The notes beneath the pieces are model-generated. The model was not told the origin of the DNA, ran no database searches, and saw nothing but the letters and a program-made list of their open reading frames with translations. A stretch of 64,000 bases of DNA from Rhizophagus irregularis (Eukaryota), in the NCBI RefSeq assembly GCF_026210795.1, contig NC_089436.1:2418001-2482000 (forward strand), given 5' to 3'. The position numbers and the translations under genes are program-made. How positions within the stretch are numbered: position 1 is the stretch's first letter; each line of letters opens with the position of its first letter. Positions 900-54,282 of the stretch are shown in pieces.

Positions 900-3800
900 A
901 AATATCTGATGTTTATCCAGAATATATAGAAGAATTTAGTATAAAGATATCTGATTTCAATCCAATTAGTCTTACTGCCTATATACCACAGGTCGAAAAG
1001 TGAAAAATCAGGCATCAATCAGTCACCAATCGGTCACCAATCAGGTACCTGATTGGTGACCGATTGGTGCCTGATTGGCATTTTCGCTCGATCACCAATC
1101 AGGCAGTTTGCTAACTTTTGATCTAGTAATCAGAAAATGATGAAATATAGCTCATTGGAATCGTCTCAACAAGACGAATCTAATGGTAGTAAAATCGCAT
1201 TTCTAGGATTAATACATGATGAGAAATTAAATAAAATATAAAAATGAAAATGTATCATTTATATTTTATTTAATTTTTTATTAACTATTAATCCTAAAGA
1301 TGCGATTTTACTACCATTAGATTCGTCTTGTTGAGACGATTCCAATGAGCTATATTTCATCATTTTCTGATCACTGGATCAAAAGTTAGAAAACTGCCTG
1401 ATTGGTGACGGTATTTGGCGAAAATGCCAATCAGGCACCGATTGGTGCCTGATTTTTCACTTTTCGACCTGTGTACCTTTGCCAGAAACTTAGCCAAAAT
1501 GTAATTAATATTCAAAATAATGATGACTGGTATTTCGGGTGGAGTATTCTAGGAGCTTTGCATCATGTAAAAGTTCATACAGAGAGAAATCCACATCGGC
1601 TATATAGAGGTTTCATGGAGGAAGTTAATATGGAAGACATCCCAATTCCAATACCGGTCTCAATACCAGTTTATAAAAAGTTCGAAGAAAATAATTCTGA
1701 AATCAGTCTATATGTCTATGAATGGCACAATCAGAATGAATGTCTTGAATTTCGCTATGTTTCAGAAAGAAGAGGAGATGAATATAAGCAAGTAAATCTT
1801 CTAGTAATTAGTACGAAAGAAGAAAGAAGTCATTACTGTATTATTAAAGATTTACATAAGCTAGTATACAATCATAGCAAACATAAAGGGCGAAAATACC
1901 TCTGCCGTTATTGTCTCCATATATACTCTTCAGAGATAAAATATAATGAATATTTGCCAAAATGCAAGGGTCTAAATAATACCTCCCAGCGATCACAAAT
2001 GCCAGTTAAGAATAAAAGTATTAAAGCTTTTTATAACTATAAATGCATGCAACCAAATTCATATCGCATTTTCTAGGATCTTGAAATGTTGACTGAAAAA
2101 CTAATTTCAAAAAAGAAAATGAAGTTAACCCACACAGAAAGATTACAGATGCACAAGCTGTGTGGCCATTACTATGTAGTTGTTCGTATGGATAGTTCAC
2201 TCAACTATGAAATCATAAGTTAAGATTTATATAGGGGTCCAGATGCGCTTGAAAGATTTGTTACAAAAATCGAGAAGGAGCTGGCAAACATACAGAAGGA
2301 TTTATCTGTGCCTGCAGAAATGATAATGGCACTAAGAGATCTTAAAGTATACAATGAGGTGACAGAATGCTGGATTTGCAAGGGACCTTTTTTAAAACCA
2401 GCACCAGAGATAGTACAAAAACTTAAAGAAGCAAAGCATAATTTATTAGAAATCAAAGAATAGGAAACATGCATAGAAAAAGAACATTCTAAAAAGAAAG
2501 AGTTACAGAAAAGATATCGAGAAGCTTTAAATGTATTTAATCGAAAAGTAAAGGATCATGATCATATAAATGGAAAGTACTGAAGCCCAGCTTATGACTC
2601 TTGTAATAAAAAATTGTGAATAGGCTCTTTCAAAACCAAAGTGCCTCTTATATGTCATAATTTTTGGGAATATGACTCTCATCCGCTTATGAAAGTTGTG
2701 AACAAGTTTACGGCTGATAAGCTAAATTGCATCCCAGAGAATATAGGAAAGTACAAAGCTATGGATGTTAGCCAGCTCCGATTTCTTGATAGCTTTCAGC
2801 ATATGGAAATAGGATTAGATAAATTAGTAAAATGTCTAGAAGGAAAACTCGAAAAATTCACCCTAACTGTTAGGTACTTTACTGAGAAAGACTATTCAAT
2901 AGATAAGATTAAGCTTCTTTTTTGAAAGGGCGTTTTCCCATATGACTGAACAAATGCATAGGAAAAATTCGACAGAATAAGCCTTTTATCTAGAAAGGAC
3001 TTCTACTCACTTCTTAGTCAGCAAAATATTAGTAAAGAGGATTATGAACATGCTCATCAAAAGGTATGAAAAATATTTGAGATAAAGAACTTTGGAGAAT
3101 ATCATGATCTTTATCTTGAGACAGATGTACTTTTACTTGCAGATATTTTTATAAACTACACTATCATGTGCTTGAAAGATGACGGCTTAGATCCCTCTCA
3201 TTATGTTTCAACACTTGAAATGTTTAATGATTCTCTTTACAAAAGTAGCAGGGCAGAACTCAAACTCATGACAAATATGGATGAATATCTAATGGTAGAA
3301 AATGGCATTTGTGGTGGAATGACAATGGTAAGTCATTGATACGCCAAAGCAAATAATCTGCAATATCCAGACTATGAATCCAGTAAACCGAAGTTCTGGA
3401 TCTTATATGAAGATATGAACGCTTTATATTCAGGTGCGATGATCCAATATATGCCTACAGAAATCTTAGGTAAAGTAACTCCAGAGAAAATACCAGATAT
3501 TCAAAGCATAGCGCCAAATGCAGAAATAGGCTATACACTAGAAGTTGATCTAGAAGTCCCAGTGCACTTGCATGATTTCTTTGCAGATTACCCATTAGCA
3601 CCCAAAAAGCAGATAGTTCCAGAAGACTGGCTTAGCTTGTATAATGAAAAGTTAGTCAATGATAAAAAAGTCAGGGGTGGAAAATACATGTTTGGAGAGA
3701 AGTTAGTTCAGATCTTTTTTACTAAGAAAAATTATGTAGTTCACTATTGAACTCTCCAGACATATATAAAGTTCAGAATGAAAGTTGCAAAGATTCATAG

Positions 3801-4041
3801 CACTCTCAAGTTCAGGCAGTCTTCATAGATGAAAGATTATATTGAGAAAAACATTCGCAAGCGTAAAATTGCTAAAGCTAATAGGGACGAATTTGGGGTT
3901 ATGTATTATAAGCTAAAGAATAATGCAGTCTTTGGTAAACAGATGGAAAATGTTTGTAAACATATGAAAGTAGAACTACTTCAAATAGAAGAGGATAAAA
4001 AAATCAGGCGCTTAGCAAGTTCACCATTGTATGTAAATTGA
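900..4041 (+). pseudogene. polB: Protein-primed family B DNA polymerase (Maverick/Polinton-type) with endonuclease VII-like insert; many stops, 3'-truncated
   Basis: INIQNNDDWYFGWSILGALH, HYCIIKDLHKL, ExoI DLE, CWICK...KDHDHINGKY*SPAYDSCN (endo VII-like), ExoII HNFWEYDSH, FLDSF, ExoIII YLETDVLLLADIF, motif A YEDMNALYSGAM, motif B KLKNNAVFGK. Motif C (YxDTDS) is absent because of truncation. Confidence 0.9.
987..1473. mobile_element. Foldback MITE with CACAGG termini and 3-bp TSD (TAC), CMC/CACTA-like, inserted in polB
   Basis: CACAGGTCGAAAAGTGAAAAATCAGGCA at 987 and its reverse complement ending at 1473; TAC at 984-986 and 1474-1476; internal arms ~1100-1240 and ~1260-1410 are inverted copies. 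Removing the element and one TSD restores ...NPISLTAYIPLPET. Confidence 0.93.
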
Positions 4042-4149
4042 GATAACTGCATAGTCTAGTCATTTTGGCCAGAAGCGCATTGCATATATAATCCTATATT
4101 TGCTCATGCTTCATTGTGATATTTTTTTAGAGCTAATTTATGTCAACTA

Positions 4150-4450
4150 CTACCTAATTTAAATTGATTTGTGATCATATAAAAAGCAACATGACCAAGT
4201 CCGATAAAATATTAACTCCTGAATATCTGGATTGGCATGCCAAATTAAGTGGGTTACCGAGCATTTTGACGGATAAGATTTGTTCCAGCTTATACAAAAA
4301 ATATAAAAGAGAAATGGGACTTGAGCCATTGCAATTATCAGAAGGTCACCTTCTCGTAAATTCAAAGCCAGAAAGCTAAGTATCTGATCTATCTTTTTCT
4401 GAGCAATGTGAAGAAAAAGGGCCTATCACTTTTGAAGCCAAACCCGATCC
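4150..4450 (+). pseudogene. Fragment of an unknown protein between polB and the CMC transposase
   Basis: Protein-like frame LICDHIKSNMTKSDKILTPEYLDWHAKLSGLPSILTDKICSSLYKKYKREMGLEP; no recognisable domain. Confidence 0.35.
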
Positions 4451-4457
4451 AGAATTA

Positions 4458-6343
4458 AACCCGAAAATATTATTTACTTAGGTTTTTTGCCAGGATCGAA
4501 AGAAGTAGGGTTGGAACGTATTAACCATTATTTAGCCCATATTGTGGATGAGCTTTTAGAACTCTGGAAGGGCTGGAGAGTTCCAAAGACCTACCAATAT
4601 ACTGAAGGTTTAGACATAAAAGTTGCATTAATTATTGGATCATCAGATACACCAGCAACACGAAAGTTATTTGGGCATGGCTCAGCAGTAATGAAATGTC
4701 ATAGGTGTGAAAAGCGTAGTACTTATAGTGAAGTTTATAAAAAAACTCATTATGGAAGAATGCAAAAATATGATAAATGGGTAACAAATCCCATAAATCC
4801 TTCATTACATAGGCAATATGCTCATGAATGGTCGCAATGCAATTCGAAGTCCTCCAGAGATACACATTTTAAAGAACATGGTGTAAGGTAGAGCGAGTTG
4901 CTTCGCTTACCATATATGGATCCCATAAGATTTGCCGTAGTGGATCCAATGCATTGTCTTTTTCTAGGTATAGCAAAATGAATAATCAAATCCATTTTCA
5001 TTAATCAAAATAAGTTAAGCATGGAGCAACTTCGAATTGCACAAAAGAGAATGGATTATATTGAATTACCTTCTGATATCGGTAGAATCCCCCCAAAAAT
5101 TGCAATTAGAAATGAAGGTTTTTCAAATTTAATTGCTGATCAATGAAAAACTTTTATTATGATTTATTCCACGCTTATACTATGGAACATGCTAGATAAT
5201 AATAATAGAAAGATCTTAGGACATTTTGTTCGAGCATGTAATCTTTTAGTAGCAAGATTTATTACAGAAGATGATCTGAGAGAAGCGCAAGAGAGGTTGA
5301 AAGACATGGCTCACCTTATAGAAAGAACATATGGGCCAGAATTTATAACAAGCAACATACACCTTGCACTTCATATTCCCGACTGTTGCCGTGACTATGG
5401 TTCCATATATAGTTTTTGGCTTTTTCCATATGAGAGACTTAATGGATATATTGGTAAGATGTTTGTTGTTATGTTAATATTTTTTAAAAATAAAGAATAC
5501 AAATAAATCTATTATTATTATCCAGGATCATACCCTAATAGTAATCGACAAATAGAGCCTGAACTTATGCGAATCGTTCTTAAGAATACTTTAATAGATT
5601 ATCATTTATCTTATAAATGGTCATCTAGTCTTCTAAAAGAATCTCTTAGTCTTATTATGCCAAAGAAAGCTGTGGGTAGTTTGGCATTTACGGCAGAAAA
5701 GGATGAGTTACAACACTTTTTGTCCATGAGACATAATACATCTACGTTTTCCAAAATATATGGTACTGAGAAATTACCGGGTCAAATGCTTAATCCTTCA
5801 TGTTTCAAAGTTATTATACCTTTAGAATTGCGTAGATTTCTATGTGAATGGTATTCTATATTATATGAAAAAGAACAAAATGAAATATTAGGATTTATGA
5901 ACCTGGTAATTGATCAACACGCAAGATTACAAATTGGTGCTGAAATATTTGGATCTATGATTTCGGGTCATCAAGAAAAAAATGTAACTATTCTTGCAAA
6001 ATGGAAAGCGTCTAATGATGATTCAGTTGATATATACCCAGGAGATGTTTAATATTATTTTGAACATACACTTAGATTACCTGAAGGACCAAGAAAACAT
6101 CTTCTAGCATATGTTAAGTGGTATAAAAGTGCACCTTCCTCTGATATCCGGTTTAAACATAGATTCATAGAACCAGAGATATCAAATACCGAACTATGGC
6201 AAGCTGAATACTTTCAGGAAGGTTGTGATTCAATAATAGCTGTTCATAGAATACTATGTAGAGCTACAAAATTCAAAAGTGTGTGCGTAGGAAAAAGGAA
6301 ATATTTGTCAATAATACCATTAAATAGAAAATTTAATTTATAG
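4458..6343 (+). pseudogene. CMC (CACTA/EnSpm/Mirage, Transposase_21-type) DDE transposase, 5'-truncated, intron 5454-5525
   Basis: PENIIYLGFLPGSKEVGLERINHYLAHIVDELLELWKG, SSDTPATRK, CHRC, VDPMHCLFLG (DxxH), NIHLALHIPDC..DYGSIYSFWLFPYERLNG. The GT-AG intron joins to GSYPNSNRQIEPELMR. Four in-frame stops; terminal TAG at 6341-6343. Confidence 0.9.
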
Positions 6344-7780: not shown

Positions 7781-7944
7781 TTCGATCTTAATTATGATAC
7801 TTTGTATATATTACTGATTCATTAAATTATATTTACATTTTTTTCTTTTTATTTGAGACAGATTACGCAGGGCGTACCTGCAGCAGAGAGTGGATCGATG
7901 GACCTATAGGTATAGGGAATGACGCCAGCATCGTTTTCGAAGCC

Positions 7945-8290
7945 GTAGCAGCAGCAGCAATAGCAGCAGCAGCAGCAGCGATCGGAGAAGGAGAAGAAAA
8001 AATAGAAGATGAAGAAATAGAAGAAGAAGAAATAGGAATTAAGGTAAATACTAATTAATCATGAATTTATAATTAGATGGATATATATCACTAATGCGTA
8101 AAACTATAATCTTATTCCATGAATTTTGCGAAAAATAGACCCTCCCTTCCTTTCATTTTCCCTTCCCTTCCTTTCCCCTTCCCCTTCTCCTTCACTTTCG
8201 TTTCCCCTTTACCTTTCGTTCTCCCCTTCCCCTTCCCCTTCCCTTCCCTTTCGTTTTCCCCTTCTCCTTCCCCTTCTTCTTCCCTCCTGA
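7945..8290. repeat. Low-complexity tracts: (GCA)n, (GAA)n and a polypyrimidine (TTCCCC)n-like run
   Basis: GCAGCAGCA at 7947-7979, GAA-rich 7985-8035, almost pure C/T at 8140-8288. Confidence 0.85.
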
Positions 8291-10695: not shown

Positions 10696-13600
10696 CAGTC
10701 AGGCGATATGTCTGATGATCAGCAGGGGGTTTGCATTTTATAGTGATCTGCATAATAAAAAAATTTTTTTTTTCATAGTAAATTTTGCATTTATTATGAC
10801 GTTTCAGTACATTTGCATAATTGTAGCACAAATTGAATTATACGAATAGATAAATTGAGTAACGTGAATTATTTTTTATCATTTTTATTTTAAACTGCTT
10901 GTTCTTTATGGAGAATCTTCAATAATAAAGAGTATATTTCATTGCGAAATCAGCACAGTAGTACAATGGAAATGTTTGATTTTTATGACTTAAATGATCA
11001 AATAAGTGTGTTTTCTGATACAGACAGCGGGTTTAAGGAAAGTTATGATAATGAAGAATATGAAAATAACCAATATGAGGATGACTTCGTAATAGATTTT
11101 GATGAAGAAGGGTATTTTCGTGCATTAAATTCTTTAATTAATGAAACAGATGAAAGTGACATTGAACCTGATGATACAGAATCTGAATTGTCTGAAATTT
11201 CAGAACCAGACGAAGATTTTTATCAAGTCATTGGCCAAGATACTGATAGTAAATTAACGTCTTGTATTTTAATTGACTATATAGATGGAACATATCGAAC
11301 ATGTGGACAAGTTAATTGTAAGAAAAGGTTGCGGGAATTAATTGGCATCTGGCAGATTGATAGCGAAATAGTTACAGCAGTTAAAAATGATCTTTCAAAA
11401 TTAGGTGTGTGTATGTCTCACTTCAATTTTGATCAAAGAATTCATAAAAAAAAATAAAATCAATGACAAAAAGCACTGAGGAAAGTCGTATACAACAACG
11501 CCAATGTTTATTCTGTCATCAGAACCATCATTACTTTACAAGGGGAATTGGTTGTACACAACATTCATGGGTTATATTGGATAGAGTCATTCTTACGCCT
11601 TGCATTGGGCAGATAGATTGTTACGCGTTGAAAGAAAGTGGTAATTTTTGTAAATCTTCATTAAAGAACTTTTCCCGGCCTCGATTCTCATGTGGTAATT
11701 GTTTTGTTGATAAGGGTGGTCATTTATACACCAAGCCAGGTAAAGGTAAAAAAAAGAAGGTCGGATGTGAAGAGCATCATGTAGCAGATACATCTACACA
11801 ACTTGAAATTATCGGAAGATGGTTTATTAGAATAGCAAAGTTTGGTGAAGATAAATTTAAAAATAAAACTCTAGCAGCCATTGCACCTTCAATTTTTCAA
11901 ATTCTTCAAGAAATTCGTCCAACAAAACACACTTCTGAACCTACCATATCAGAATCAGTTTCAGAAGAAATTCCTGATGTTCCAAGTTTATTTATGTTGC
12001 ATGTTGGCATGCAACTAAAACAAATTAATATTGAAGTTATAACACAAGAGGATTTGAAAGATCAGTTTTGTCAAGATTTAGGAAAACAATTTGCATTAAA
12101 AATATGGAAATCTCGAATTGAATTAACTTTAAATAAGAATCAATTACAGAATCCACAATCCATAGGTGAATACGTATCCAGTTTTCCTTCATGGTTGGTA
12201 AATTTTTTTTATGCATTTTTAACTGGTATCTATGAAAAAAAAATGGCTATTGTAAATCAAAGACGAAAAGCAAGAAATATATCAATAAAAGCTAATGATC
12301 CAGTTCAAATTACCAAAATTGTTTCATTATTCTTATCCATTTTGATTAGCATTACCTTTCCTTCACTTCAAATCTGGTTTTCTACAATAATTGCCAGCCT
12401 TACACGAAAACCAAAAATGGCGGGTGATTTAACAAATCTTCTTGCTGTCTTAAAAGTTTTATCTGCACTGTAAGGAACATGAACGAAGATTAGAAAAAGA
12501 GAGAATGAATAAAGTAGATCCAACAAAGCGTTTAAAAAAAAATTCTTACTTTTGGAATCTAGCCGTAATAGACAATATAGACTTTAAGGAAAAAACTTTT
12601 TCCTATGGCAATATATTTGACATTACACGTGGCACATCACATGCAACTCTTCGAATGGTATTTCAAACACCTTTACAAACTCCTATTATTGAAACTAAAC
12701 ACGATGAAAAAGCATTGGTATCTCATCGAATTTTTGGAATAAATGTCACTGCACAGAAAATATTAGATCTTTATGATGAAATATTAGATGAATGTTTAGG
12801 ATTTTATTATTCTAATAATGATCATGAAAACTTACAATTTGAGACAAATTTTGATATTTCTACAGTACATAAAAAACTTATTGAAAGAATGGATCGAGGA
12901 TGTTTTGGAGACCTACAGCATGTAGTAATTTTGGAAGCGGGTGGTATTCCAAATACAAATGAGGGAATCTTTAATGCAGCAAAAATGTATAAAAATGATT
13001 TTTCGTTAAGTTCTGATGAATATTTGGATATCGTTGCTGATGAATCTATATTTCGGCGGTTAATAAATTTACGAAAAGAGTGGCCAAACCTTCGACCTAT
13101 TCTTGGTTCATGGCATACTAACAAAGATATGGCATCAGCTCTTATTAGTATATTCTCAAGCTACGGAATTTTTGATTTAGCTGCTGCAGTTGGAGTCAAA
13201 TATATAGACAAATTGGAGAAGGTTGTTGACTATCGGGCTACAGTCCGGATTATAGAATTAATTTGGGTTTCAGTTGGTATAGCTTTACGAATACATTTAA
13301 AGTCAAAAAATATGCATAAATATGATATTATGGATGACAAATATGAAGAATACCAAATACTTAAAATCTGGTATTTATTTTATAATTGGGCGGGTTTATT
13401 TATTGCACATAGAATTGGTATTCGAATAGGAAATTTTAATATTCAAAAGAATACTTTAGCTGCTTTTAGTCCCCTGCTTCCTTCAGCTGGAAAATCTAAT
13501 TATGCTCAATCGGTTTCACATTTCTTTGGAATTCTTGAACAATACCCCAAATTAGAGGAAAAATTGCAAGTTGCAGGGTCTTTTAAAGTATCAGAAGATA

Positions 13601-14843
13601 GATTTGGACATTTTATGGCATTTGACGAAGCTCTAGAAACATTCGGAGTAAAATTTATTAAGCAGAATGTTACAGGTAATGTTATAGATCAGGAAAACCT
13701 TAAGCGACAAGTGAAAGCATCTCAGTCAGAGTATGAACGAATAGAATTATTTTTGAATGAATATTTGCATAACAATACCTCTACTAATCATGAACGATCA
13801 ACAAATTTAAGAAAAGATGAAATGTGGAGTTTGGTGGAGAAATTGTTGATAGCTTTTGATACCAAAGATTTCAATCATTATAATCAAACACATGATCTTT
13901 TCCATACTTCATATCCAAAAGAGATTCATGCTGATGGAATAAGACGATTAAAGGAATGCTATAAGCGGGGACTTCACCGTATACATCTCATATATGCACA
14001 AGAAGTGTTAAAAAAAGAAAAAATTGATACTACAGGACGAAGGGTAAAAGAAGTATTAGTTACCAAATGTAAAGATATTGAAAAACCTCCCAGAAAAAGA
14101 AAAAACACAAATATTTTAGATAACCAACCTGGATCATCTGATGAACCACCTAAGAAGCGAGTACGTCGAATTCCATCAAAAGAAGCTGTTGAAATACTTG
14201 CCCCGATGGTGGCCCATTCTTTACCACCTACTAAAGAAGAAGTACAACGATATCTTGCTGCACTTGAAGGTATATCTTCATCTTCAGATATTTGGGACGC
14301 AGCTCGATTAACTCAGTATTATAAAAATCGACATAAAAAAGCTAAATAATGGCAAGGAAAACGGTTAATAACAATATTTGAAATTATAAAATAAAAAAAA
14401 ACATTTTAAATAAAAAAAACCTTATATTTGTTTACTAGTTAACTACATACTATATTATTTAAAATTACAATGTCACTTTAAAGCTCTATTATCTGTTATA
14501 TATCAAAACTAGTATTAGTGATAGTGTATGCGACTCAACTGGACTCGCAAATCTAAGATTACTTCCAAAATTGTAATATTTCTTCCGTTTGGAGAATCCT
14601 TGCCATAAGTACGAAAATTAAGACCATATTTAACTAATTAAAATAAGACCAGAAGCAGGAAAAAGTAAGAAATTTCTTTAGAAATGTATAGTTTGAAACT
14701 TGGAAAACGAAGTTTATTTAGAAAGAATTCGCAGTTAATATATGACAATTTGACGTTAATATATTCCCTAACTTCTACGAATGATTGTTACACAAAACAA
14801 TTTAATTAATGATCTGCACTCAATCAGACATATCGCCTGACTG
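10696..14843 (+). mobile_element. Full-length TIR DNA transposon, 21-bp perfect TIRs, flanked by TTAA; unclassified (DUF6589-like)
   Basis: CAGTCAGGCGATATGTCTGAT at 10696-10716 and ATCAGACATATCGCCTGACTG at 14823-14843; TTAA at 10692-10695 and 14844-14847; encloses one long coding region. Confidence 0.92.
10966..14349 (+). CDS. Putative transposase (~1,125 aa when two frameshifts are joined): acidic N-terminus, Cys/His clusters, DUF6589-like core, NLS-like tracts, homeodomain-like C-terminus
   Basis: ORFs 10942-11457, 11463-12473 and 12505-14349 join through single-base shifts at an A9 run (11446-11454) and near 12465. Motifs AVIDNIDF, TSHATLRMVFQ, DIVADESIF, LGSWHTNK, GKSNYA, FDEALE; RKRK and PPKKRVRR; WDAARLTQYYKNRHKK. 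The DUF6589 assignment is from memory of the motifs. Confidence 0.7.
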
Positions 14844-17659: not shown

Positions 17660-17760
17660 AATGTATTTAAATTTTAAACTTTTATATATATTGTACTTCT
17701 ATAATATATTATACAGTCAACTCCCTCTATAGTTACTCCCGTTATAGTCACATTCTACTA

Positions 17761-17957
17761 CAGTGACACCTCTCTAAGTGCACCCTCCTTGGGACCATAG
17801 TAAAAAAATAGTAGAATGTGCACTTAGAGAGGGTGTGCATTTATAGAGAGTAAAATATTAAGAGCTCTTATAAGTTGGGACCAGGCCTACCGTGCACTTA
17901 AAGAGAATTTATATAGTGCATGCACTTATAGAGGGTGCACTTATAGAGGTGTCACTG
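17761..17957. mobile_element. Tc1/mariner-pogo type MITE (197 bp, TA TSD) nested in the previous element
   Basis: TA|CAGTGACACCTCTCTAAGTGCACCCTC ... GAGGGTGCACTTATAGAGGTGTCACTG|TA; internal GTGCACTTA repeats. Confidence 0.92.
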
Positions 17958-18824
17958 TATATAGTCACACCAGTTGAATGTTCAAAACACTTTATTATTA
18001 AAATCTATCCTATATAGTCACAATCTATCTATAGTCACTATCACACCTATCCTCAAAAATCTTATATTAAAAAGAACCGTTTATAATCACAGTTATATAA
18101 AGAATATATTAAATAACTTGGCATCTAATAATCGTACAAAGATGTATCATAGCTTGTTAGAATCGTCTCACTGAGACGAATCGAATAGTGGTAGTTTTAT
18201 CCTTTTCCTTTCACTGGCTGACGAGTTATTCAACAAAATGTTAAACATCAGCATTATAATATTTCTTGATTTACGTTTACTGCGCCATTTAACATTTTGC
18301 TAGATTTCTCAGTACCTAGTGATTGTAGAAAGACGATTTATAGCTCGTTGGAATCGCCTCATCGAGATGAATCGAATGGTGGTAAGCTCAATATTGACGG
18401 AGTTATTACTTAAAAACCATTTAATATTTTTTAATTTTGGAAATTGATCTAGTGATTGGATTTCGATGTATCTTATACCATTAGATTCATCTCATCAAGA
18501 CGAATCGAATGGTAGTAAGATCGTCTTTCTAGGATTAATATTGGCAGAGTTATTACACAAAAACCATTAATATTTTTTTAATTTTGGAAATTAATCTAGT
18601 GATTGGATTTCGACGTATTTTATACCATTAGAACCGTCTCATCAAGACGAATCGAATGGCGGTAAGATCATCTCTCTACGATTAATATTGGCGAAGTTAT
18701 GATACAATAAAGTTTTAAGTATAATTCTGGCTAAAATTATGTTAATTTTTGGCCGGAATTATGATATACAAATATAAGAAATTTTTTATATAGTCACATC
18801 TCTTTATAATCACCAAATATTAAT

Positions 18825-20357
18825 ATCATCTCTTCCATTTTTCCTTCTGCTTTACGTTCAGAAGTTTTTGCTTTATTGCACGGATTGGACTCCCGCCTTC
18901 GTTAAAGATTATTCTGTCGCCACTGATTGTCTTCAATTACTTTCTTTATGGTCTTTGTATGTGGATGCTCCTTTTATTCCCAGAATGCTTAAAGAATCCA
19001 ACCACCTTTTGTGGTCCTCCATACGCACTATTATGTTGCAAAAGAATCTGGATGTTACCTTGATCAAGGTTCCTGCTCATGCTGATGACCCTTTGAATAA
19101 TCATGTGGATGCATTAGCCAAAGCCGCTCATACTGACTCACATCTTTCTTCTTGCCCACCATTGGAATTGATAGCTCCTTGCATTTTACAATTTAATTCC
19201 TTACCTGTGGATATGAATATCCGGAAATTTATTAGAAATATGTTTGACGCCAAAAGTCTTTTAACTCTTGCTGTATTACCAAGATTTAATTCCTATTCTT
19301 CAACTTCTGATATTGATTGGGCTTGCTCCAAATTTTGTCTCAATAACAATAAGCATTTTGTCTCTCATCGGAATGGCCGTTCTGAGTTTTGTGGTTTCCG
19401 TATCAAGCTACTTTTAGATATGCTTCCAACGCTTACAACTCTTCAGAGACGAAAGCCTCATCTTTATAATCCAAGTTGGCTTTGTCCTCAATATAATTCT
19501 TTTCCTGAGACTTTAGACCACTTGTGGACTTGTCCTTATATTTTACCAGAATTTAGCCCTTTACAAACTTTTAAAACATTACTATTGGCTCTTCGGACTA
19601 CTTATCTTGATAATTTCCTTTCCGCGTCATCTTTAATTCCTTTACCGGACTCTTTTGCTGCTGAATTTATGGCTCTTAATTGTTGGGATTGTGACCCTCC
19701 TTCAATTTCCTGCCTGCGACTCACAAGAGGACTTATACCGATATTTTTGACAGAATTTCTTGGAATTTATTTTTCTTCACCTACCATATGGTCTATCTTA
19801 GATACACCTTTGCACGACTTTCATTTTGACCTTTATGTTCAAATCTGGTTGTGCCGATCCATTTTCTTTCATTATTGGGAATTAGCTCAAGGCATTACAA
19901 AGAAAATGAAATCGTCAGCTCTTGGGCCTTCTTCTATTCTTCGACCTTCCTCTAACATTCTTCTTGACTCTTCGACACCTTCCTTGGCGACAGCTTTCTT
20001 GGATTCCTGGGTTTCTTGGGTTTCCTCTTCTATAATCCGTGGGGGATCTTGGATTTCGCATTTGGATTTTTGGCGTCGCTTAACAGTTCAGCCTCTACTT
20101 AGGATTTCTTTTTGGTAACGGATTGGATCTTAGGACATGCTGGATAGTTGACTCACACTGGCCTTCGGGTAAAGATGGGGTATGCGTTTCTGTAATAGTT
20201 TAGTTTTTCTTTACTTAATTTTATTTTGTTTAGATTTCTTTACTTGTATGAATCGTGAAGCTAGTTCTTTTTATTTTTTATGTTTAATTCTTATATTTGA
20301 TATTTGTAATATTGTTCGATCTGTTTATTGTACTTTTCGTTTAAATTTAATAATAAA
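18825..20357 (+). mobile_element. 5'-truncated non-LTR retrotransposon (RNase H C-terminal part, CCHC-type finger, 3' UTR)
   Basis: ORF 18868-20118: ATDCLQLL, NHLLWSSI, LIKVPAHADDPLNNHVDALAK (RNase H), LPTLTTLQRRKPHLY, CPQYNSFPETLDHLWTC. T-rich 3' UTR ending in an A-rich tail; exact ends uncertain. Confidence 0.85.
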
Positions 20358-20759
20358 AGATAAAGTCATAAGACTGTTTGCTCATAATCACCAAATATGG
20401 ACTGTCCCAAATGTGTGACTATAAAGAGAGTTGACTGTATATAAAATCAAAAATGACATTCTAAATCCTTTTTTATATATTAAAAAAGGAGTTTGCTATT
20501 TATCACCGGTGGTGATCATCACCGCTATCACGTGATAATATTTAAATCACTTCGATTATAATTAATAAAGCGCAAATTTACCACAAACGTAATTTATTTA
20601 ATTTATTTACAAAATGCCGCTTCTAAACTTAAACTCTAAAAATTTGTGGCATGTTACACACACGCGTCTATCGTAATTCTAAAATTTGATTAAACCAATC
20701 AAATGTAATACAATGTACAGGCGCATTTTTATTAGCTACCCTACCAAACTCCACATTCA

Positions 20760-23700
20760 CTAAACAACCCGTTCAGAAGCTTTATGCTTTGCGCAACTTC
20801 TAATATTATGACCTTTTTCTAAACAATGACTACACGTCTTGGAAGAAGAAGTTATATTTTGTTTATTGGCCATTTCTGTTACCGCTTTATAACGTTTCGG
20901 AGGACGGCCTTTTGGCTTGTGGTACTCTGGATTTGATATCTCTGGAATGCGATTATTATCTATCACAACTAATGGTTGTCGTTGGCAACTATCCTTTGAG
21001 GAAAGACCTTCTTGAACTTCTTCAATATTTAGTCCTGTAGTGCGTCAATATTTCATTATAAATTGTGTGAGAAGTCCAGTCAGTTCCCCTGTTGCACCTT
21101 CTGTCACAGCAATTTGGACACTAGTTTTTGCCATAGACATTGCACTACCAAATTCGATCCTTTTATCAGCCATTTTCTTAATAGTTGATGTATAAACGTT
21201 GCCTGTTCGAATTTGATCAATGTAGTGCAATGGTTTGATTGAGTAAGTTTTATTTCCTTGAGCAATTGTGGCGTATCTTGATGTTTCAGATGGCATGGAC
21301 TCAAACCAACGCGTATGAATGAAGCCCATATGGAATACGGCTTTATCAGATTGAAGTAGAATACGATATTGATGTCGGCATAGCATCCCTTGATTAATAA
21401 TATTCATGCATGTACAAAATGATGTTGCGTCTGCAAGAATCGCTACATAGTGTGGTTTAGCTGTAGATGATGTTATTGTTATATAGCTAACCTCCCATAT
21501 TTCCTGAATTTCGGTATTATCTAGGTTTGATAAAAGGTCTTGCAATCGGATTTGTGGCATATCATACATATATTCCACTATATCTGAAGGATTATTTTCA
21601 GGTTCGTTAACCTTTAAATCAATTGGATTAGCATACTACAAACATTATATTAAAATGAAAGCTTTGTAACTACTCACTTGATCTATTGTAATTAATGTTC
21701 CCTGGTATAATAATGCCTGTTTCATTGTGCCCTCTGAAGTGATAATGGTATAGGTGCTAAACATTCCTTTAAAATAGAATCAATGTCTTTAAAGATGGAG
21801 TTGTATGCTGATAGAAGACCAACATCAGGAAATTTGTTTAGGCGTAATTTAGTGTAATATTTCGAAGGTGATGTAAAATTTCGAAATATTACACTAAAAA
21901 CGTAATATTACAAAAGTTTACGCTCTTAAATTTGAATAATTATAGTAATTTAAGAATATCTCGCTATCTACTGATCCAATCAAGACGATCTATAGCTCAT
22001 TGGAATCAGCTCATCAAGACGGATCGAATGGTAGTAAAATCGCATTTCTACAGTTGATAGAACGCTCTATAGTATGCAGTAAAGTTTTAAATTAATAGAA
22101 AGTCATCTATTAAACGTAAAGATACGATTTTACTACCATTCGATTCGTCTTGATGAGCTGATTCCAATGAGCTATAGATCGTCTTGATTGGATCAGTAGA
22201 TAGCGAGATATTCTTAAATTACTATAATTATTCAAATTTAAGAGCGTAAACTTTTGTAATATTACGTTTTTAGTGTAATATTTCAAAATTTTACATCACC
22301 TTCGAAATATTACACTAAATTACGCCTAAACAAATTTCCTGATGAATTGTTGGGTTTGATCCATAATAATCATTAAGACGTTTGTAATATGATTCTTTAT
22401 CTAATTCACGTTCGACTTCCCTTACTAGCTCCTTTAAAAGTGTACCAGTCAAGATGCTTTTTAAGAACACCATTAATGGATTCGACCCGTTGAGTTGACT
22501 CGACCCCTGCTGTGAATACCTTCCCGATGGCATACCTCGCCCATGATTCTCGGCTTGAATAAAGTTTTTTCTCAAGATAAGTTCGACATGGCTCATATTT
22601 TGTGAGCATCTCTTTGTATCTTAATTCGAATTGGCATTGAGTATAGCTATTGCGCATGTGATGAAAATCTCCAATGAAATTATTGATCATCTCTCCATGC
22701 AATTTAGACTTAGCTTTCTTCTTTACATTTTCTGTAATATGATAGATACATAGTAGGTGTCGAGTTTGTGGATAAGTATTCTGAACGGCAGCTATCATCG
22801 CCGGATCGCCATCTGTGAATAACACAACAGGTGAAAGATTACTTGTGGCTTCTAAAGTGCATTGCAATATCCAATTATAGTCAGCTAACGTTTCATATTT
22901 TGTTAGTGCTTGAGCGAGGATCCTTGTTTTAAAGTTGTTGTCAACACCAACAAATAAGCTAAGGGCCATTTCATATCGATTCGTCTTGGCTGTATTGTCT
23001 TGTATGACAATATCATGATATTTAGGCCAAAGTTCATTACGCTGTTGACTTGTCATCCAAAAAAGCCCAGTGAGTTCATTAGATGGTCCTTCCAATCGTG
23101 CTATAACAATAAAATCGGGATCCTTACTACGCTGCTCTATAAGATATGAGAACATCGTTGCCGCGTCAGACTCATCATGAATTCGAACTCCCGGAACTTT
23201 TGAATTGCGTTGTATAGATTTTTTTTCTTTATGTGATGTTGAGGAAATTCTTTAAGAAGGAGATCGTACTGTTGTCCAGCACTTAAATGTCCATTGATGG
23301 TGTAATGTTCAATTTTATCCAGAACTACTTGTGGAAAACGTTGATTCATAGGAGCGAGTTCTATAGTTACTGGATCACATTGATGATTATGAATATTGTT
23401 GAATTTGGTAAGATGTATGGCGGTCGCGCGTTTTCCAAAATTAAATGATGCTTGCCATGAACAATTTGTTTTGGTTGTAGTAGCATCACGGTGTAATGTA
23501 ATATCTTCGACTTTCTTCGGTTTACTGATTCCAGATTTCCAACAAGTATAGACACGTCGTCGAACGATCATTTTATCAACTTCATCAAGATCTTTACGGA
23601 ATTTAATAGCAACAAATCCGTTTTGTTTTGCGTACTGATTGATAATTACATCAACCTCGTTCCAGTTTTTAAAGGTATCACCAACTTTTAGTATTACTTT

Positions 23701-36240: not shown

Positions 36241-36271
<31 letters not shown>

Positions 36272-38892: not shown

Positions 38893-40004
38893 CACTTGAT
38901 GTGTTAGAGTATTGTAATTTATTTTAATCTATCAGATTGTAAATGTGTCTGTATAGACTATTATGTGCCAGGTGTTAGCGACCTTTTTGTTGCTAAGGAA
39001 CTATCCATGTGTTATTCACTTATTTTACTTCTGCAGCTTTTTTTATTGCTTATTTATAGTCCGCCTATCGGCCTAACCCTGCACCCTTTTTATTGCTAAG
39101 AAGTTACTCATGCATCGGCGCCTTTTATTTTTCGTCGCAGAAAATTCATGTCGGTCGGCGCAATAAAATCTGCAGTGCATTTTCGGTTTCATGGTAGTTC
39201 CAAATGTCGGATGTCAGTAACAGCGGTTAATTTTGGTCAACTCTGTTATAATTCTAGCTTATATTTAGAATGTAATATCTCGCCTTCCAGTGATTGGATT
39301 CGTGCAGTTCTCAGCTTGTTAGAAAGAGCGCGATGAGAGCATTCCAATGATGTTAAAATCGTATGAATCGGATGCCCGGATGATGAGTTATTGCGTCCTA
39401 AAGTTCTGTCAGAAATTATGGAATAGCCAACATTAACTCTAATTTCCATTTGTCCCAGCATCGATATTCAGGATAGAATAAAATGAGTATTGACCTTAGT
39501 AAAACACACCAAAAGTTTATGTTCTCTGCCAATAAGATCCCCTGAAATTTCTGAACGAAAAATGGATATTAGTTTGCAAGCTCTGAAGTCGCCTTTTTGC
39601 GAATGCACAGCCACAACTTACCTTACTTGTGTAATGTCTTGTACGGAAGTACGGAACATTGCAAGGAAATATTTTGATCGGCACTCTCATGTGACATCGT
39701 ATCATGTGACTGATTTTTTTTTTGATTGATAAAAATTTTTCGTTAAGAAAAAGGTCAAAGTTTGAATTACTGACAGTTAGTTTATGGAAATATAAATATG
39801 TGACATATAACCAAAATGTCTCGTCAAACTATCTTTCGCCATCCTAGGTACAAACTCTTTCGCCAACCAAAGAACAGACGAAAATCGAAGAAAGGTCTCT
39901 ACCCGCTAGCCTAACGTATCCAAAAAGGTCTTCATTTGTATTTTACTGAAAAACTTTTTTTTGTACCATGTTTTTAACTCTTGTTTTTCGTGTTTGCAGA
40001 TAAT

Positions 40005-41480
40005 AGTGTCAGAATGTGTTTTTATTTTTTGTTGTTCTAACTAAACCTCTTTGTGAATCGTCTGCGATTCACATTACTAAAGAGAATAACGCTATGGTGA
40101 TAAAACATTCCGTGAAGACGAACTCACCGTTTTTGAACTCAAGAAATTGATATGAAAAGAGTTAAACGGGAATGATGAAAGGTTCAATTAAGGCTAATCG
40201 ATGAACGCTATGGAAGGTTATCGAAGGAGGCGAGAAGTGGAAGGCACTAGAAAATATTGAAGATAATAATAATACTGGAATTTACATTAATGAGTTCAAA
40301 GGTATTTAATCGAAAGCGTTACGGCTATTTGCGTGACTTTATACTCAATGGTATCAATGCTAATAAATTGAACCGATCTTGCATCACTGGAAACCCAGGT
40401 ATTGGCAAATCATACTTCGGAATTCTAATGTTAGTGGAGCTTATTAAACGGAACAAGTCAGTTCTGATCGATTATGAAGGGTTCGCGACACGTATTTCTC
40501 CTAATGGTGATCTACTTAAGGTAGAAAATAATGATAGACATATAGACACTACAGTATATAGACAAATTGCAGAAAAAAAGGACGTATGGTGTATCATTGA
40601 TAGTGTAATGCCCAAATTTAATCATGATTTAATTGGAAAGTTTATTATGGCCTAAGAAGCAATTCATTGAAAGATTTACCAAAGCACAAAAGAGCGAAAT
40701 ATTTTACATGCCACCTACCTTGGGAAATTGGATCTATATAAAGAATTTAATTATAATTCCATCAAGGAAAAGTTTGATTTAGTATGGAGGGGTTGCAAGA
40801 TGGATTTTTTATATTGAGATGACACCAGATAAAATTAAATTGAGGATTGAAGGCGCACAGGCTTAAAAAGTTTGCTCAGAGTTCAGGGCGAACACTTCTT
40901 AGGTGATGGCTTCTCTCATAAATTAATTCACATAAAACAAATGAGGATACGGAGATAATTCATACACCAAAGCAATCTGCACCTTTACATCTAATTTCGT
41001 GGAAAAATATGTGCTTAGAGAAATTTCAAAAAGATCACATTGAAGATTTACACAGTTTTATTGAGTATTCAAGGGACTTGCGGGGATGGCAGTTCTTTGT
41101 GGGAAGATGTTTGAAATGTAGTCACATGCAAAAGAGGGGAATTTTTGGTACGCTATCTTGGACAGCAATCTAATGAAGCGAATGTGATATTGAAGAACTA
41201 GTAAAGAAGAGGTTCAAGAATATTGACATTAGCGAAGGAATTTACTATCAGCCAGTTGCCAAAAATTATCAAAGTATAGATAGTTATATTCATCCTAATA
41301 AACTATTTCGAATCACTATTGCCGACAGACATGGGATCAAGCAAGAAAAGTTAAAGGAAGTTAAGGATATCTTGGATCAAAGGAATGAAATTCGCTTATA
41401 TTTTTTATATGAAAGTTTTAAAACATACAGAAAACAGAAATACTTAGATGGAACTAAGAAGCAGATAATGTTCTGATAAC
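40005..41480 (+). pseudogene. Crinkler (CRN)-type gene: N-terminal header, P-loop NTPase, restriction-endonuclease-like C-terminus; heavily frameshifted
   Basis: LTVFELKKLI*K...IKANR*TLWKV (CRN header); ITGNPGIGKS (Walker A), WCIIDS (Walker B), FYMPP; GKMFEM, YYQPVAKNYQSIDSYIHPNKLFRITIADRHGIK...IRLYF. Confidence 0.8.
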
Positions 41481-49410: not shown

Positions 49411-51184
49411 CATTATTTTAGCTTTTAATTAATTTTTAATTTTTATTACTTTCTAGCATAGTGGCTTTAACAAATCTTTAATGCAAAAAAAGTAGAAATT
49501 ATATTTCTAAAAATACATTTTATTAAAATAAGAAAATTGCAAATATACAATACATGTATTCACTTAAAGCTAAAATCGCACCATGTATAACAAAATTTAT
49601 ATTTGTAGAGATTTATTTAGTTTATTTGAATCAAATTTTCAGAACGAATCATATGACCAAATTCATAGTAGCAATTGTGTTTGGATTTTACAAAGTTCTC
49701 AAGATGTATCCAAGATAGGGATACGTAGTAACTTTATCATGTATCACAGGCAGAGACCTGAACTTTTGTATTTATTTTTGCTTGTATTAATAAAAAAATT
49801 TTTACATACAACTTATCGGGACAAAATGTCGCGGTTTTTTATAACCTAAAATTTATCGGTATCGTAACGAGTCTTCACATTTACCACATGATATAGGGCA
49901 AACTCGGCTCGAAATCATATGTATCTATTTGTTCCGAGGCATTGAATTCGATATCCCTTGTTCCCTTGTTAATCGCATCAAATTTTCCTAAGGAGCGTCT
50001 GTTTGATCAGTTTTTTGGATGACCCACTGCGAATTTATAAAAAGGTGAGACTGGTTAGTGAATCCCTTATACGCCTTGTGTAAGTAAATCAAAGTTGCCT
50101 TTACATAATCGAAATATACACCAGAAAATCGTCATCTGTATGTGTCACATGCCTGGGCGAAAACGTTTATCAAATCTAAATGCTGATTTATAAGAAAGAA
50201 ATATTGTTTTGTTTTGCCCTTTGGCTAATTTTTGCTCCGGAATTTTGTAATAGATCCGAAATTACTTCAAGTTCTCTTGCATAATATAATTTTTATGAAA
50301 TTTATGAAATACATGGAAATTTAAACATAATGTAGAAACGGAGGAAATTGGTTAATTTATTTTAGAAATCACAGAAGCATAAGAGATAACTGAAATGCAA
50401 AAGAATTAACATTAGGCATTATGGAATATATAGTAACTCACTCATTTTATGAGATGCTTCCTCCTTCTTATAGGACATTATTATGTTATATTGTGTTCCA
50501 GAGTATTTGGCTATATCCTTTTTGACTACCTTTCATCCTTTCCATTTCATTTTATATTTACTAATTTTATTGTTTGTTGGTCTTTCCCTTTTCCTCTTCC
50601 CCTTCTTTGATTGTTCTTTAGCCTCTTTCTTTCCCCTTTGAGCACTTTTTTGTTCTTCATTCTCATCAGATTCATAGTTTATTCCTCAATTTTAATGATT
50701 TGAGACTGAGTGTGATCATTATTTGTGATTACAGTATTTAGATATCTATCAATATTTGTATTAACATTCACAAATCCAGTTGCTACCCAAGTATAATTAG
50801 GATTAATTTCATAATTTTATCATTTTTTTAGTTAATGGGTTACTAATAGATTTGTATCACCTTTATGTATAATTCATATGAACATTATTTTCAATTTATC
50901 CTTATATTTTGATAATTTTAGTTTTAACTTTAACCAAATACTGGAGAAAAATTACTCTCCCTTAGGATTGGAATGGCTATATAAAACACATATTTCTCTT
51001 CATTTAAAAACACAATTTCTTTTTCATTATAAAAAAATTCTATTTTACCAGGATTAAAATTACAAAATCCATCATATATTCATTCTTAAAAATACTAGCA
51101 ATACATTTTTTTTAGTAAAAAAATCCTATAACTAGTATTCCAAAGAAGTTGGATTTTGAGGTGTATTCAAACTTGATTTGAGTG

Positions 51185-51461
51185 TAGAAGTAATGACTCA
51201 GATTTGACTTGATCCAATTATAGTCTGATTCAAATAATCTAGATTTGACCGTCAAGTTGTATTTAATATAAAAAAATTAATTTTTAGTTAAAATTATAAT
51301 AAAAGATTCGGGTTGCTAGATCAAAGTAAGGTATAACTTGACTTGACGGGTCAGGTTGAGTTTATGCAGGTTACAGGTCATCAAATCATATGATCCTAAC
51401 CTGACCCCTAAATACAAGTTAGATTAATAACCCAGGTTTGATCTAACTCTTTCAGAAAACT
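51185..51461. repeat. Degenerate MITE-like relic rich in TGACC/GGTCA motifs
   Basis: Repeated TTGAC(C/T) and inverse GGTCA/GGTT motifs; termini not resolvable. Confidence 0.35.
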
Positions 51462-54282
51462 ACTTATAACTGATGGATTATTTTTAAAATGCTCTATGCA
51501 ACTAATTCATCTTATATTTGTAAATATTTCTATTGTTTCTTTTTGAAAGATATATTCAACTATGAAATCTTGTATAAGCTCACAGATATAATAAATATAT
51601 TTATTACCAATTCCATATAAACTTGTTTTTTTTAATATTTTTAATAATATATTATTTGAATATGTTATTATCAAGCTTTATATTATTGATTTAAGTTTTA
51701 GTTTAAATATTTTAATGTACTTTTAAAATCCTTATAACTAGATTTTAGCAAAAAGTGTAATAATAATAGAATTTTGCTAGTAATATTTTAATATTTTCAA
51801 TTTATTTTTTTTACTAATTACTTATTATTAGCAAATTGCTATTCATCTTTTTCTAAATAAGTATTATATTAATATACAGAATATTTATAATATAAATATT
51901 CACAATATAAAGAAGAAATTTTAATCTTATTTTATTAAAATCTTTAAAAGCTTAAATTTCAATTTATTATTCTACTTTAAAAAAAATGCAATTTTAATTT
52001 ATTATTTATTAAGAAATTTATTATATAATAATAATAATAATTAGTTATCCTATTAAGATTATATTTAATTTGTTTTTTTTTCTAAACTAATTCCAGTATT
52101 ATCTAATAAATTTATTTCGCATGCTGTGCATTTTGTTCACTACCAAAATCGTCAAACAAGGCTTATAATTTATTTCCGTCAAGTAACATAACACAGACTT
52201 TCTTTTTCATTTAAAATGTAATTTTTCATTTTCATTTTCATTTTTTTTAAAAAAATTTAAAATATTTTTAAAATTTTGCAGAAATTATTTCATTAATTTT
52301 TGTATTACTATCATGGTATAAAGAGGATCCCAAATATCACATATACAACTTGGAGGTTGACTTTTCACAAATTAACCCTAAATTTCAAAAAAAAAAAGGT
52401 TTTTTGCAATTATCTTGGCATTCAATAGTCCAATTTATGCGAATATTTTTGGTTTTGTAGTTCTCATTAAGCTCTACAAAATAAAAAAAAATCACATGAA
52501 TCAGATCACTGGATGCTAAAATAATTACAAAAAACTGAAAATAAAAAAAGAGCAAATTGGGCCTTTTTTTTGGCAAAAAGTCAGTTATGATCTATATAAA
52601 AAATGTCCAGAGTCTTGTATAAGATAGACTTAATATAATTTTCTAAATTTACAGCCAGTTGATAACAATTAAAAATAAGAAAGCAATTGATTATTTTTAA
52701 ATTATTTTTAAATTCTAATTAATATTATTATTAGATAATTTCTATTTGTATACAAAGTATTTTAAATACAGATTTCCAAAAAAGTAAATTTTCTATGTTA
52801 GTTATTTAATAAAAAAAAAATGTTAAATAAATTAAAATAATCAATTTTAATATTTTAAGTAAACTTAAAAAATAAATAAAAATACATATTATATATTTCT
52901 TTTAAAATTATATTTATTAAAAATTTTTTTAATTTTTTTACATAAACTTTTTAATAAAATTATATAATATATATATAAATATCTTATATAAATTAATTTT
53001 TTTAATATGTGAAAAAATTTTTTTGTTGAATGATTTTGGTTAAGATCATATATTTTTTATTATGTTTAAATCTTCTACTTTAGAAATTGTATTTTTTATT
53101 TAAGAACAATGTTTAAAATAAATTAACAAGTCTTAGAAAAAGACTTTTTTTTTATCATTTTTATCATTTTTGTATTTTTCCTTCACTTTCTCTTTTTAAT
53201 AATAATGATTTCTTAGAAATTTCTTTTTTTTAATGGTCATTAGTAATTCCATTTTCTAAATAAACATCAATTTGCATTTCCTATTGTCAATATATAATTA
53301 CACATATATAGTATATATATTATATATTATATATTATTTTAAAATATTCAAATTAGTAGTTAAATTAACTTATATATTTAATAAGAATTTTTTCTTAATT
53401 AAACAATTTATAATTTATTAAATTTTAATTATTTAACAAATTTAAATTAGATTATACAAACTTTATTTTATGGTTTTCATAATATAAAAATTTCATATGA
53501 TCATTAGATCATAAGATATTTTAAAAATTCAAAATTTTTTTAAATTAATTTTAGCCCCTACAGTTTAAGGGATAATATATTATTAAATAATGATTTTAAT
53601 TTTATTTTAATTATATTTATTTTTAAAGAAAATGTATATTTTGCCTTTTTGTATAATGTTAAAATTTTACATTTTATATAAAAAAAGAAATTTTTAATAT
53701 ACAAATTTTTTTAAAAATGTTTACTATATATATTTTCCTTTACTTTACAAATCTATTTAAAGTATCAAAGATAAAGATAATTTGATTTTTAAATATCATT
53801 TATTTATTTAATAATACTTTTTTTTCAGATTTTTTTCATTAAATCATATGACATATTTAATTCTGACTAGAATTAAATAATTAGCATATAAAATATTTTA
53901 AAGCAAAATTTAAACATTAAATTTATCTTTATTTTATATAGTATATAGTATATTAGTATATAATTAATATTAATGTATATATTTATAATTTAAATAAGTA
54001 ATTATATTATTTCAAAATTTTTTTGTAATTTATTGGAATACTTTACCTTTAAACTATAAAAATTATAATAATTAATTTGTATATTATTTATATGTATTAT
54101 TTAATTAATATTTATATGTATTATTTAATTAATATTTATATATATTATTTATAAAAAGTAATATATATATATATATAAATAAATAATTTTAAAATAATTT
54201 TAAGAAAATAAAAGACTTATAGGGTATATTTGCAGGCAGGTAGAGTGAAAATTATTTATAGTAATAGGTTAGATTCTTGTAA

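What the first reader, a model, noticed from the sequence alone, without database searches (positions are those of the whole stretch)
1112..52528. One ~115-bp dyad module recurs inside unrelated transposon families
Seen: an imperfect 13-3-13 dyad core at 1155-1183 (TTGGAATCGTCTC-AAC-AAGACGAATCTAA), 18157-18185 (TTAGAATCGTCTC-ACT-GAGACGAATCGAA, plus three more copies to ~18700), 22000-22028 (TTGGAATCAGCTC-ATC-AAGACGGATCGAA), 39319-39347 (TTAGAAAGAGCGC-GAT-GAGAGCATTCCAA) and 52453-52481 (TTTTGTAGTTCTC-ATT-AAGCTCTACAAAA). Inverted copies lie at ~1317-1345 and ~22139-22167. Outer arms are similarly spaced (TAACTT/ATCTC...AGTRAT upstream; ATG.T.GTAAAATC...GAGTTATT downstream). The hosts have different termini and TSDs (CACAGG/3 bp, CATCAGG/2 bp, CAGTCA/TA). 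Spacing and symmetry persist while sequence drifts. Inference: a cis-acting site independent of the transposase, such as a recombinase/resolvase-type site, a host-protein or nucleosome-positioning site, or a parasite of MITEs.
Basis: partly seen in the sequence, partly recalled or inferred. Interest (0 to 1): 0.8.

Follow-up and report, generated by a model that had tools for sequence, protein, structure and literature searches.

The report
Cross-kingdom symmetric docking site in transposons
A symmetric DNA pattern about 117 bases long, with fixed internal spacing, sits inside several otherwise unrelated jumping genes of this root-symbiotic fungus, and related copies occur in mobile DNA that likely comes from mushroom-type fungi and animals; it is likely a docking site for a host chromatin protein complex that would help any element carrying it to spread.

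Summary
The module is real. The window is from a Glomeraceae fungus. Nine copies beat every shuffle, also with a profile trained on outside DNA (39-kb copy 32.8 bits, shuffles at most 8.7). The 52-kb copy matches by its outer arms only. Eight copies lie in three TIR elements with different ends. A scan for the 31-bp core alone gave 119 metagenome loci, about 33 families. These include further TIR types, a solo-LTR-like element, tandem arrays of up to 11 and a MITE on likely animal contigs. Prokaryote hits are at chance level. Spacing is conserved while spacer sequence drifts. The module has no target-site duplication of its own, folds poorly, shows no lone half-sites, and no recombinase gene lies nearby. 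Best reading (0.45): a duplex-read, nucleosome-sized docking site for a host chromatin complex, captured repeatedly by transposons; the function is inferred, not tested. Rivals: recombination site (0.2), target of a transposon-encoded helper (0.15). Ten paper searches found no description. This scan had not noted the sequence before, only analogous bacterial and fungal cases.

The parts
987..1473 (.). Element A: 487-bp fold-back TIR element, CACAGG ends, 3-bp TSD (TAC)
1111..1227 (+). Module A1 (centre 1169)
1273..1389 (-). Module A2 (centre 1331), inverted partner of A1, 162 bp apart
17714..20437 (.). Element B: TIR element, CAGTCAAC ends, TA TSD; holds four modules, a nested MITE and a nested LINE-like fragment
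17759..17957 (.). Small MITE nested in B (no module); empty-site joint seen
18113..18229 (+). Module B1 (centre 18171)
18304..18406 (+). Module B2 (centre 18362), right arm shortened by about 14 bp
18437..18553 (+). Module B3 (centre 18495), in a 147-bp tandem unit
18584..18700 (+). Module B4 (centre 18642), in a 147-bp tandem unit
18821..20383 (+). LINE-like fragment inserted in B, 15-bp TSD (LINE label recalled from the translation; no Pfam hit)
21823..22344 (.). Element C: 522-bp fold-back TIR element, CATCAGG ends, 2-bp TSD (AA), inserted in a MULE/FAR1 transposase gene; empty site seen
21956..22072 (+). Module C1 (centre 22014)
22095..22211 (-). Module C2 (centre 22153), inverted partner of C1, 139 bp apart
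39275..39391 (+). Module D (centre 39333), divergent single copy with both outer arms; host not delimited
52410..52524 (.). Variant E (centre 52467): same outer arms, different core, span 115 bp; host not delimited

Best explanation
The module is a two-fold symmetric 117-bp DNA pattern with fixed spacing, carried inside many unrelated mobile elements, and it likely acts as a double-stranded docking site on which a host chromatin complex would bind and bend the DNA, keeping the element accessible. Shown: a 33-bp core (CATTNGAWWSNNCTY-NNN-RAGNNSWWTCNAATG), outer sub-motifs at fixed offsets (TAWCTY at -57, YAKTRAT at -45), A/T-rich steps about every 11 bp, single, paired and tandem copies mostly 115-191 bp apart, and hosts with many kinds of ends. 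Inferred: that a protein reads it as a duplex; that the protein comes from the host (most likely a sequence-specific dimer at the dyad on a nucleosome-sized particle); that carriers escape silencing or are mobilised more often; and that transposon lineages therefore capture, keep and multiply it by template switching and unequal exchange.
For: Many hosts: three end types in the window. Outside the window: a fold-back with a 9-10-bp direct repeat (L068), a TA-flanked element sharing B's array but not its ends (L041), a 190-bp MITE with 5-6-bp TSD (6 loci shown), and a 540-625-bp solo-LTR-like element with 5-bp TSD in 2 of 3 copies shown, which carries two modules 148-152 bp apart. Geometry: TAWCTY starts at -57 in 9.8 of 66 family-weighted half-sites, against at most 2.0 at any other offset. 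Indels run 0.3-0.7 per 100 nt within 40 bp of the centre and 1.5-3.9 beyond 50 bp, while identity at 20-39 bp (0.69-0.75) is lower than outside (0.80) (88 locus pairs). Arms were not in the search pattern, yet an arm profile trained on the window alone ranks 27 non-AMF-like families above 24 prokaryote chance hits (p=0.0015) and above 86 shifted flanks (p=4e-6). A/T periodicity of 10.2-11.5 bp beats 500 of 500 permutations. Duplex rather than hairpin: DNA folding z is -3.0 to +0.7 for the nine window copies. Tandem arrays of 3 to 11 copies suit an additive binding site.
Against: No binding protein, footprint or methylation effect was tested. The best-fit period is 11-11.5 bp, longer than the roughly 10.2 bp recalled for nucleosomal DNA, and it rests on four peaks. 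Several spacings (115-139 bp) are too short for two ordinary nucleosomes, and spacings show no helical phasing (19 classes, Rayleigh p at least 0.12). I recall no host protein with this specificity. Roughly half of the 27 non-AMF-like families have arm scores within the control range, and the two large families on animal-like contigs lie at its upper edge (-14.4 and -16.7 against a control top of -15.6), so across kingdoms the core is much better supported than the full span. The indel pairs are not independent, and copies were pre-selected for an intact core. Arms are slightly more symmetric than motif conservation explains (0.337 vs 0.295, 3 of 2000).
Confidence: 0.45

Rival explanations
1. 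A site-specific recombination site (res/att-like) for a tyrosine recombinase supplied in trans: a 13-7-13 core cut around TYNNNRA, with accessory arms, used to invert, excise or resolve elements.
For: The odd-centred dyad can be parsed as 13-7-13. The total length is like bacterial res sites (recalled). Inverted pairs occur in A, C and several loci. Left- and right-arm similarity are uncorrelated among 45 AMF-like copies (rho -0.07). Crypton tyrosine-recombinase elements exist in Glomeromycota (PMC13465315, passages).
Against: No recombinase family among 14 + 35 window ORFs and 91 of 137 locus ORFs scanned. No lone half-site in the window. Direct arrays of up to 11 persist. The central 7-mer differs between neighbours in one element. 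Neighbouring segments of one arm correlate barely better (rho about 0.2), so the arm test shows saturation, not crossover.
Confidence: 0.2
2. The target of a transposon-encoded helper (anti-silencing or DNA-binding protein, VANC- or TnpA-like) that unrelated elements hijack.
For: [quoted passage not shown] The module likewise forms arrays in non-coding interiors. CpG observed/expected is 1.44 in window modules against 0.91 for the window.
Against: VANC motifs are 8-9 bp and differ between related proteins, whereas this core is shared across fungal phyla and animal-like contigs. No candidate gene was found near any copy. The CpG excess is not specific: the non-module part of element C is higher (2.31).
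Confidence: 0.15
3. A functionless ancient internal segment, passed between transposons by template switching and amplified with them.
For: A and C share the whole inner double module (71% over 209 bp). B and L041 share the array (77% over 486 bp). Segments therefore do move between hosts.
Against: Spacers are saturated while offsets and sub-motifs are fixed and indels are depleted near the centre. Drift would erode all of these together.
Confidence: 0.12
4. A small nested MITE, or a hairpin acting as single-stranded DNA or RNA (REP/attC-like).
For: Some families are near-perfect fold-backs centred on the core (z down to -14). A small symmetry excess remains in the others.
Against: No TSD at any symmetric boundary from 52 to 75 bp among 164 copies. 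Window copies do not fold stably. No Rfam match. Poly(A) RNA depth on B and C modules is at most about 7 in the one RNA run laid.
Confidence: 0.05

Closest known systems
VANC target motifs of VANDAL transposons (PMC5735166, passages read)
   Same: Cis motifs in non-coding transposon interiors, multiplied as tandem repeats, usable by an unrelated family.
   Different: 8-9-bp motifs that change between related proteins, with the protein encoded by the element. Here: a 117-bp fixed-geometry dyad, conserved across distant eukaryotes, with no partner gene found.
Resolution and recombination sites: Tn3 res, loxP/FRT, lambda att (recalled)
   Same: Dyad core with spaced accessory sub-sites, about 115 bp in res.
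   Different: No linked recombinase, multiple direct copies per element, variable central 7-mer, no hybrid half-sites seen; found in eukaryotic elements of several kinds.
Phage Mu strong gyrase site and other internal transposition enhancers (recalled)
   Same: Internal, transposase-independent site, often central or symmetric about the centre, with about 11-bp periodicity.
   Different: Odd-centred dyad (type II topoisomerases cut around an even centre, recalled); eukaryotic; multi-copy; also in an LTR-like element.
Polydnavirus host integration motif, HIM (PMC8549517, passages read)
   Same: About 120 bp with partial inverted symmetry; proposed there to derive from recombinase sites of viruses or transposons.
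   Different: HIMs split on integration and lose 41-73 bp. The core scans of the viral collection found one ichnovirus segment and three other contigs, not a series of polydnavirus circles. HIM sequences were not compared directly.
Host transcription-factor sites amplified by several transposon families, e.g. E2F sites in Brassicaceae (recalled)
   Same: One host-read motif captured by unrelated families.
   Different: Those are short and lineage-restricted; this one is long, symmetric and spacing-constrained.

Membership tests
Nested MITE | Own TSD at fixed module boundaries | tested here: not met
   No boundary at 52-75 bp from the centre with a consistent 2-8-bp repeat, 164 copies
Nested MITE | Terminal inverted repeats as the best-conserved part | tested here: not met
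   Conservation peaks at the centre; outer positions carry little information
Tyrosine-recombinase site (res/att/lox-like) | Dyad core with a 6-8-bp overlap | tested here: inconclusive
   Can be parsed as 13-7-13, but no cut site is known
Tyrosine-recombinase site (res/att/lox-like) | Linked recombinase gene | tested here: not met
   None among 49 window ORFs and 91 of 137 locus ORFs; contigs are short and a gene acting in trans is not excluded
Tyrosine-recombinase site (res/att/lox-like) | Crossover products with breakpoints in the core | tested here: inconclusive
   No lone halves in the window; arm-correlation test saturated
Hairpin element (REP/attC/structured RNA) | Stable stem kept by paired changes | tested here: not met
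   Folding z -3.0 to +0.7 for nine window copies; only a small symmetry excess; no Rfam hit
Nucleosome-positioning sequence | About 10-bp A/T periodicity symmetric about a central base pair | tested here: inconclusive
   Periodicity is significant, maxima near -24, -35, -46, -57, but best period is 11-11.5 bp
Nucleosome-positioning sequence | Centred histone footprint | not testable with these tools
   Needs MNase-seq or reconstitution
VANC-type anti-silencing target | Tandem arrays in non-coding interiors | tested here: met
VANC-type anti-silencing target | Element-encoded binding protein and loss of methylation | not testable with these tools
   No candidate gene found; no methylation data

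The most novel reading that the evidence does not exclude
An ancient, kingdom-spanning cis element of fixed 117-bp geometry, read by one conserved eukaryotic DNA-wrapping machine and recruited independently by DNA transposons, LTR elements and satellites: a universal fitness module of mobile DNA.
Probability: 0.35. Interest if true: 0.92.

Novelty: categorically new. Interest (0 to 1): 0.78.

Why it matters
Transposon superfamilies are thought to share little beyond their enzymes, and internal non-coding DNA is usually treated as family-specific filler. A constrained element shared by TIR elements, an LTR-like element and tandem arrays in distant eukaryotes would point to an unrecognised host-transposon interface. 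It would make a long-standing question directly testable: why some non-autonomous elements amplify so well. It also matters for annotation, because the shared module links unrelated families in repeat clustering.

Tried and rejected
No whole genome was held, so genome-wide enrichment was not measured. Viral scans: 1, 0, 0, 3 and 5 loci; the five E-type hits show no arms by eye, and L003/L004 gave no HMM hit. Prokaryote genomes: 26 hits against 9-43 expected by chance. L126 and L138 look module-like, are inferred to be mis-binned eukaryote DNA, and were left out of the control set. L012, L057 and L084 were dropped from the metagenome set as probable chance hits; L057 and L084 carry bacterial-looking ORFs. 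Plasmid BLAST with two copies gave nothing, nor did Rfam. Helical phasing of module-to-module spacing was not found. The crossover-at-core test was inconclusive. CpG retention was not specific. Longer stretches of metagenome contigs were not held. Paper searches found no description of the module; the library lacks most subscription journals and repeat-database notes, and no supplements were read. Papers seen: PMC13465315, PMC8549517 and PMC5735166 as passages; bioRxiv 10.64898/2026.08.24.746577 as abstract and outline only, not used; the rest as listings.
Full report
Setting. The window is AT-rich eukaryotic DNA with MULE/FAR1 and Transposase_21 remnants, an F-box gene and a kinase fragment. 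The F-box protein is 86% identical to a Rhizophagus irregularis protein and 67-69% to Funneliformis proteins, so the source is a Glomeraceae arbuscular mycorrhizal (AM) fungus. No whole genome was held.

A symmetric PWM trained on hosts A-C scores the 39-kb copy 47.7; 60 local shuffles reach at most -19.0. An HMM trained on 100 rows from metagenome copies only (50 copies in both orientations) finds 9 of the 10 window copies at 31-61 bits; 25 shuffles reach at most 8.7. The tenth copy (52 kb) fails both full-length models. Its outer arms alone score 28.1 against a maximum of 22.5 in 100 shuffles, at a span of 115 instead of 117 bp. It is a variant with another core.

Hosts in the window. A (987-1473) is a fold-back element with CACAGG ends and a TAC duplication. 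C (21823-22344) is a fold-back with CATCAGG ends and an AA duplication; it interrupts a MULE gene, and the empty site appears as a joint in all 3 contig runs laid. B (17714-20437) has CAGTCAAC ends and TA; it holds four modules, a nested MITE and a LINE-like fragment with a 15-bp duplication. In run X1, summed contig depth over B and C is roughly a hundred- to a thousand-fold that over the neighbouring MULE, so both are highly repeated; this is not a copy number. A and C share the inner double module at 71% over 209 bp but not their ends. The hosts of D and E were not delimited.

Distribution. After dropping L012, L057 and L084 as probable chance hits and adding L001, L126, L138 and nine window copies, 164 complete modules fell into 33 families. 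They include AM-like TIR elements with further termini; L041 shares B's array at 77% over 486 bp but has other ends. They include a fold-back with a 9-10-bp direct repeat (L068) and a 540-625-bp solo-LTR-like element ending in TGTRACA, with a 5-bp duplication in 2 of 3 copies shown and two modules 148-152 bp apart. A protein on one contig of the LTR-like family has its nearest Atlas clusters in Basidiomycota. A 190-bp MITE with 5-6-bp duplications is centred on the core; a protein on one of its contigs has nearest clusters commonest in Arthropoda (a lead only), and another looks like a nemo-like kinase (recalled), so these contigs are probably animal. One perfect core lies in an ichnovirus segment, which is wasp chromosomal DNA (recalled). 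One repeat carries 11 modules in tandem (L026). In 596 Gb of prokaryote genomes there were 26 hits against 9-43 expected. I recall similar strings in plant transposons but did not test that.

Anatomy. The core is CATTNGAWWSNNCTY-NNN-RAGNNSWWTCNAATG, centred on one base pair. TAWCTY starts at -57 in 9.8 of 66 family-weighted half-sites, against at most 2.0 at any other offset; YAKTRAT starts at -45 in 5.4, against at most 1.0 elsewhere. An arm profile trained on eight window copies ranks 27 non-AM-like families above 24 prokaryote chance hits (p=0.0015) and 86 shifted flanks (p=4e-6). The effect comes mainly from the basidiomycete-like families and a few others; roughly half share little but the core. 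In 88 divergent locus pairs, indels run 0.3-0.7 per 100 nt within 40 bp of the centre, 1.3 at 40-49 bp and 1.5-3.9 beyond 50 bp, while identity at 20-39 bp is lower than outside; these pairs are not independent. A/T dinucleotides peak near -24, -35, -46 and -57, beating 500 of 500 permutations, with a best period of 11-11.5 bp. AM-type modules have two recognisable arm types and so a polarity. Neighbouring modules lie mostly 115-191 bp apart, often 147, 166 or 182, without helical phasing.

What it is not. It is not a nested MITE: no symmetric boundary from 52 to 75 bp carries a duplication. It is not mainly a hairpin: the nine window copies fold no better than shuffles in most cases (z -3.0 to +0.7), and in 29 non-fold-back families the halves agree only slightly more than motif conservation predicts (arms 0.337 vs 0.295; degenerate core positions 0.491 vs 0.420). 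There is no Rfam match and little poly(A) RNA in the one RNA run laid.

Mechanism. Fixed spacing, free spacers, two independent half-sites and helical periodicity are what a duplex wrapped on, or contacted along one face by, a two-fold symmetric protein complex would leave; this is an inference. Arrays of 3-11 direct copies suit an additive site better than a crossover site, which a recombinase would tend to delete (inference). I therefore commit to a nucleosome-sized chromatin docking site that keeps carriers accessible (0.45). The wider claim, a protein-read site under selection for geometry, I put near 0.8. Against the chromatin reading: the 11-bp period, spacings too short for two ordinary nucleosomes, and no known candidate protein. 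The recombination rival (0.2) keeps the 13-7-13 parse and the inverted pairs. It lacks a recombinase among 49 window ORFs and 91 of 137 locus ORFs, lone half-sites or a clear crossover signal. A transposon-encoded helper of the VANC kind (0.15) explains the arrays and use by unrelated families (PMC5735166, passages) but not the deep conservation.

Novelty. Ten searches of the paper library found no description. The Glomhopper paper on AM-fungal Cryptons has no occurrence of 'palindrom' or 'recombination site' in its main text. Repeat-database notes, subscription journals and supplements were not seen, so prior mention is possible. Earlier scan notes hold no look-alike sequence and only analogous bacterial and fungal cases, which I did not test. 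I rate it categorically new, with the function unproven; interest 0.78.

Noticed in passing
window 987-2076: Element A sits at the start of an ORF that resembles the N-terminal part of a Polinton-type DNA polymerase B (recalled; no Pfam hit).
   Followed up: partly
window 10894-14349: Three consecutive ORFs (187, 341, 631 aa) with no Pfam hit; the last resembles DUF6589/KDZ-type transposases (recalled).
   Followed up: partly
window 4436-5503: Fragments with Transposase_21 and DUF4218 hits, i.e. a decayed CACTA-like element.
   Followed up: partly
window 20113-20330: The 3' end of the nested LINE-like fragment draws poly(A) RNA depth of about 940 on each strand in the one RNA run, mostly partial matches from other copies.
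   Followed up: no
window 40251-41473: Broken ORFs that look like a Crinkler-family gene (recalled; no Pfam hit), about 0.9 kb downstream of module D.
   Followed up: partly
L126:1-5000: A contig binned as cyanobacterial holds a roughly 630-bp satellite with module cores and an ORF that looks eukaryotic; probably mis-binned eukaryote DNA.
   Followed up: partly
L002:3975-4603: A 20.7-kb linear viral contig holds two module-like sites about 550 bp apart (32.8 and 21.9 bits), near ORFs that look GIY-YIG-like (recalled).
   Followed up: partly
L026:3823-6587: A roughly 2.8-kb dispersed repeat built around 11 tandem modules with alternating 131/166-bp spacing; its ends and class are undetermined.
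   Followed up: partly
window and loci, module cores: One frame across the core is often open and reads like ESSRRDESN (L001 ORF), which may give spurious predicted proteins.
   Followed up: no
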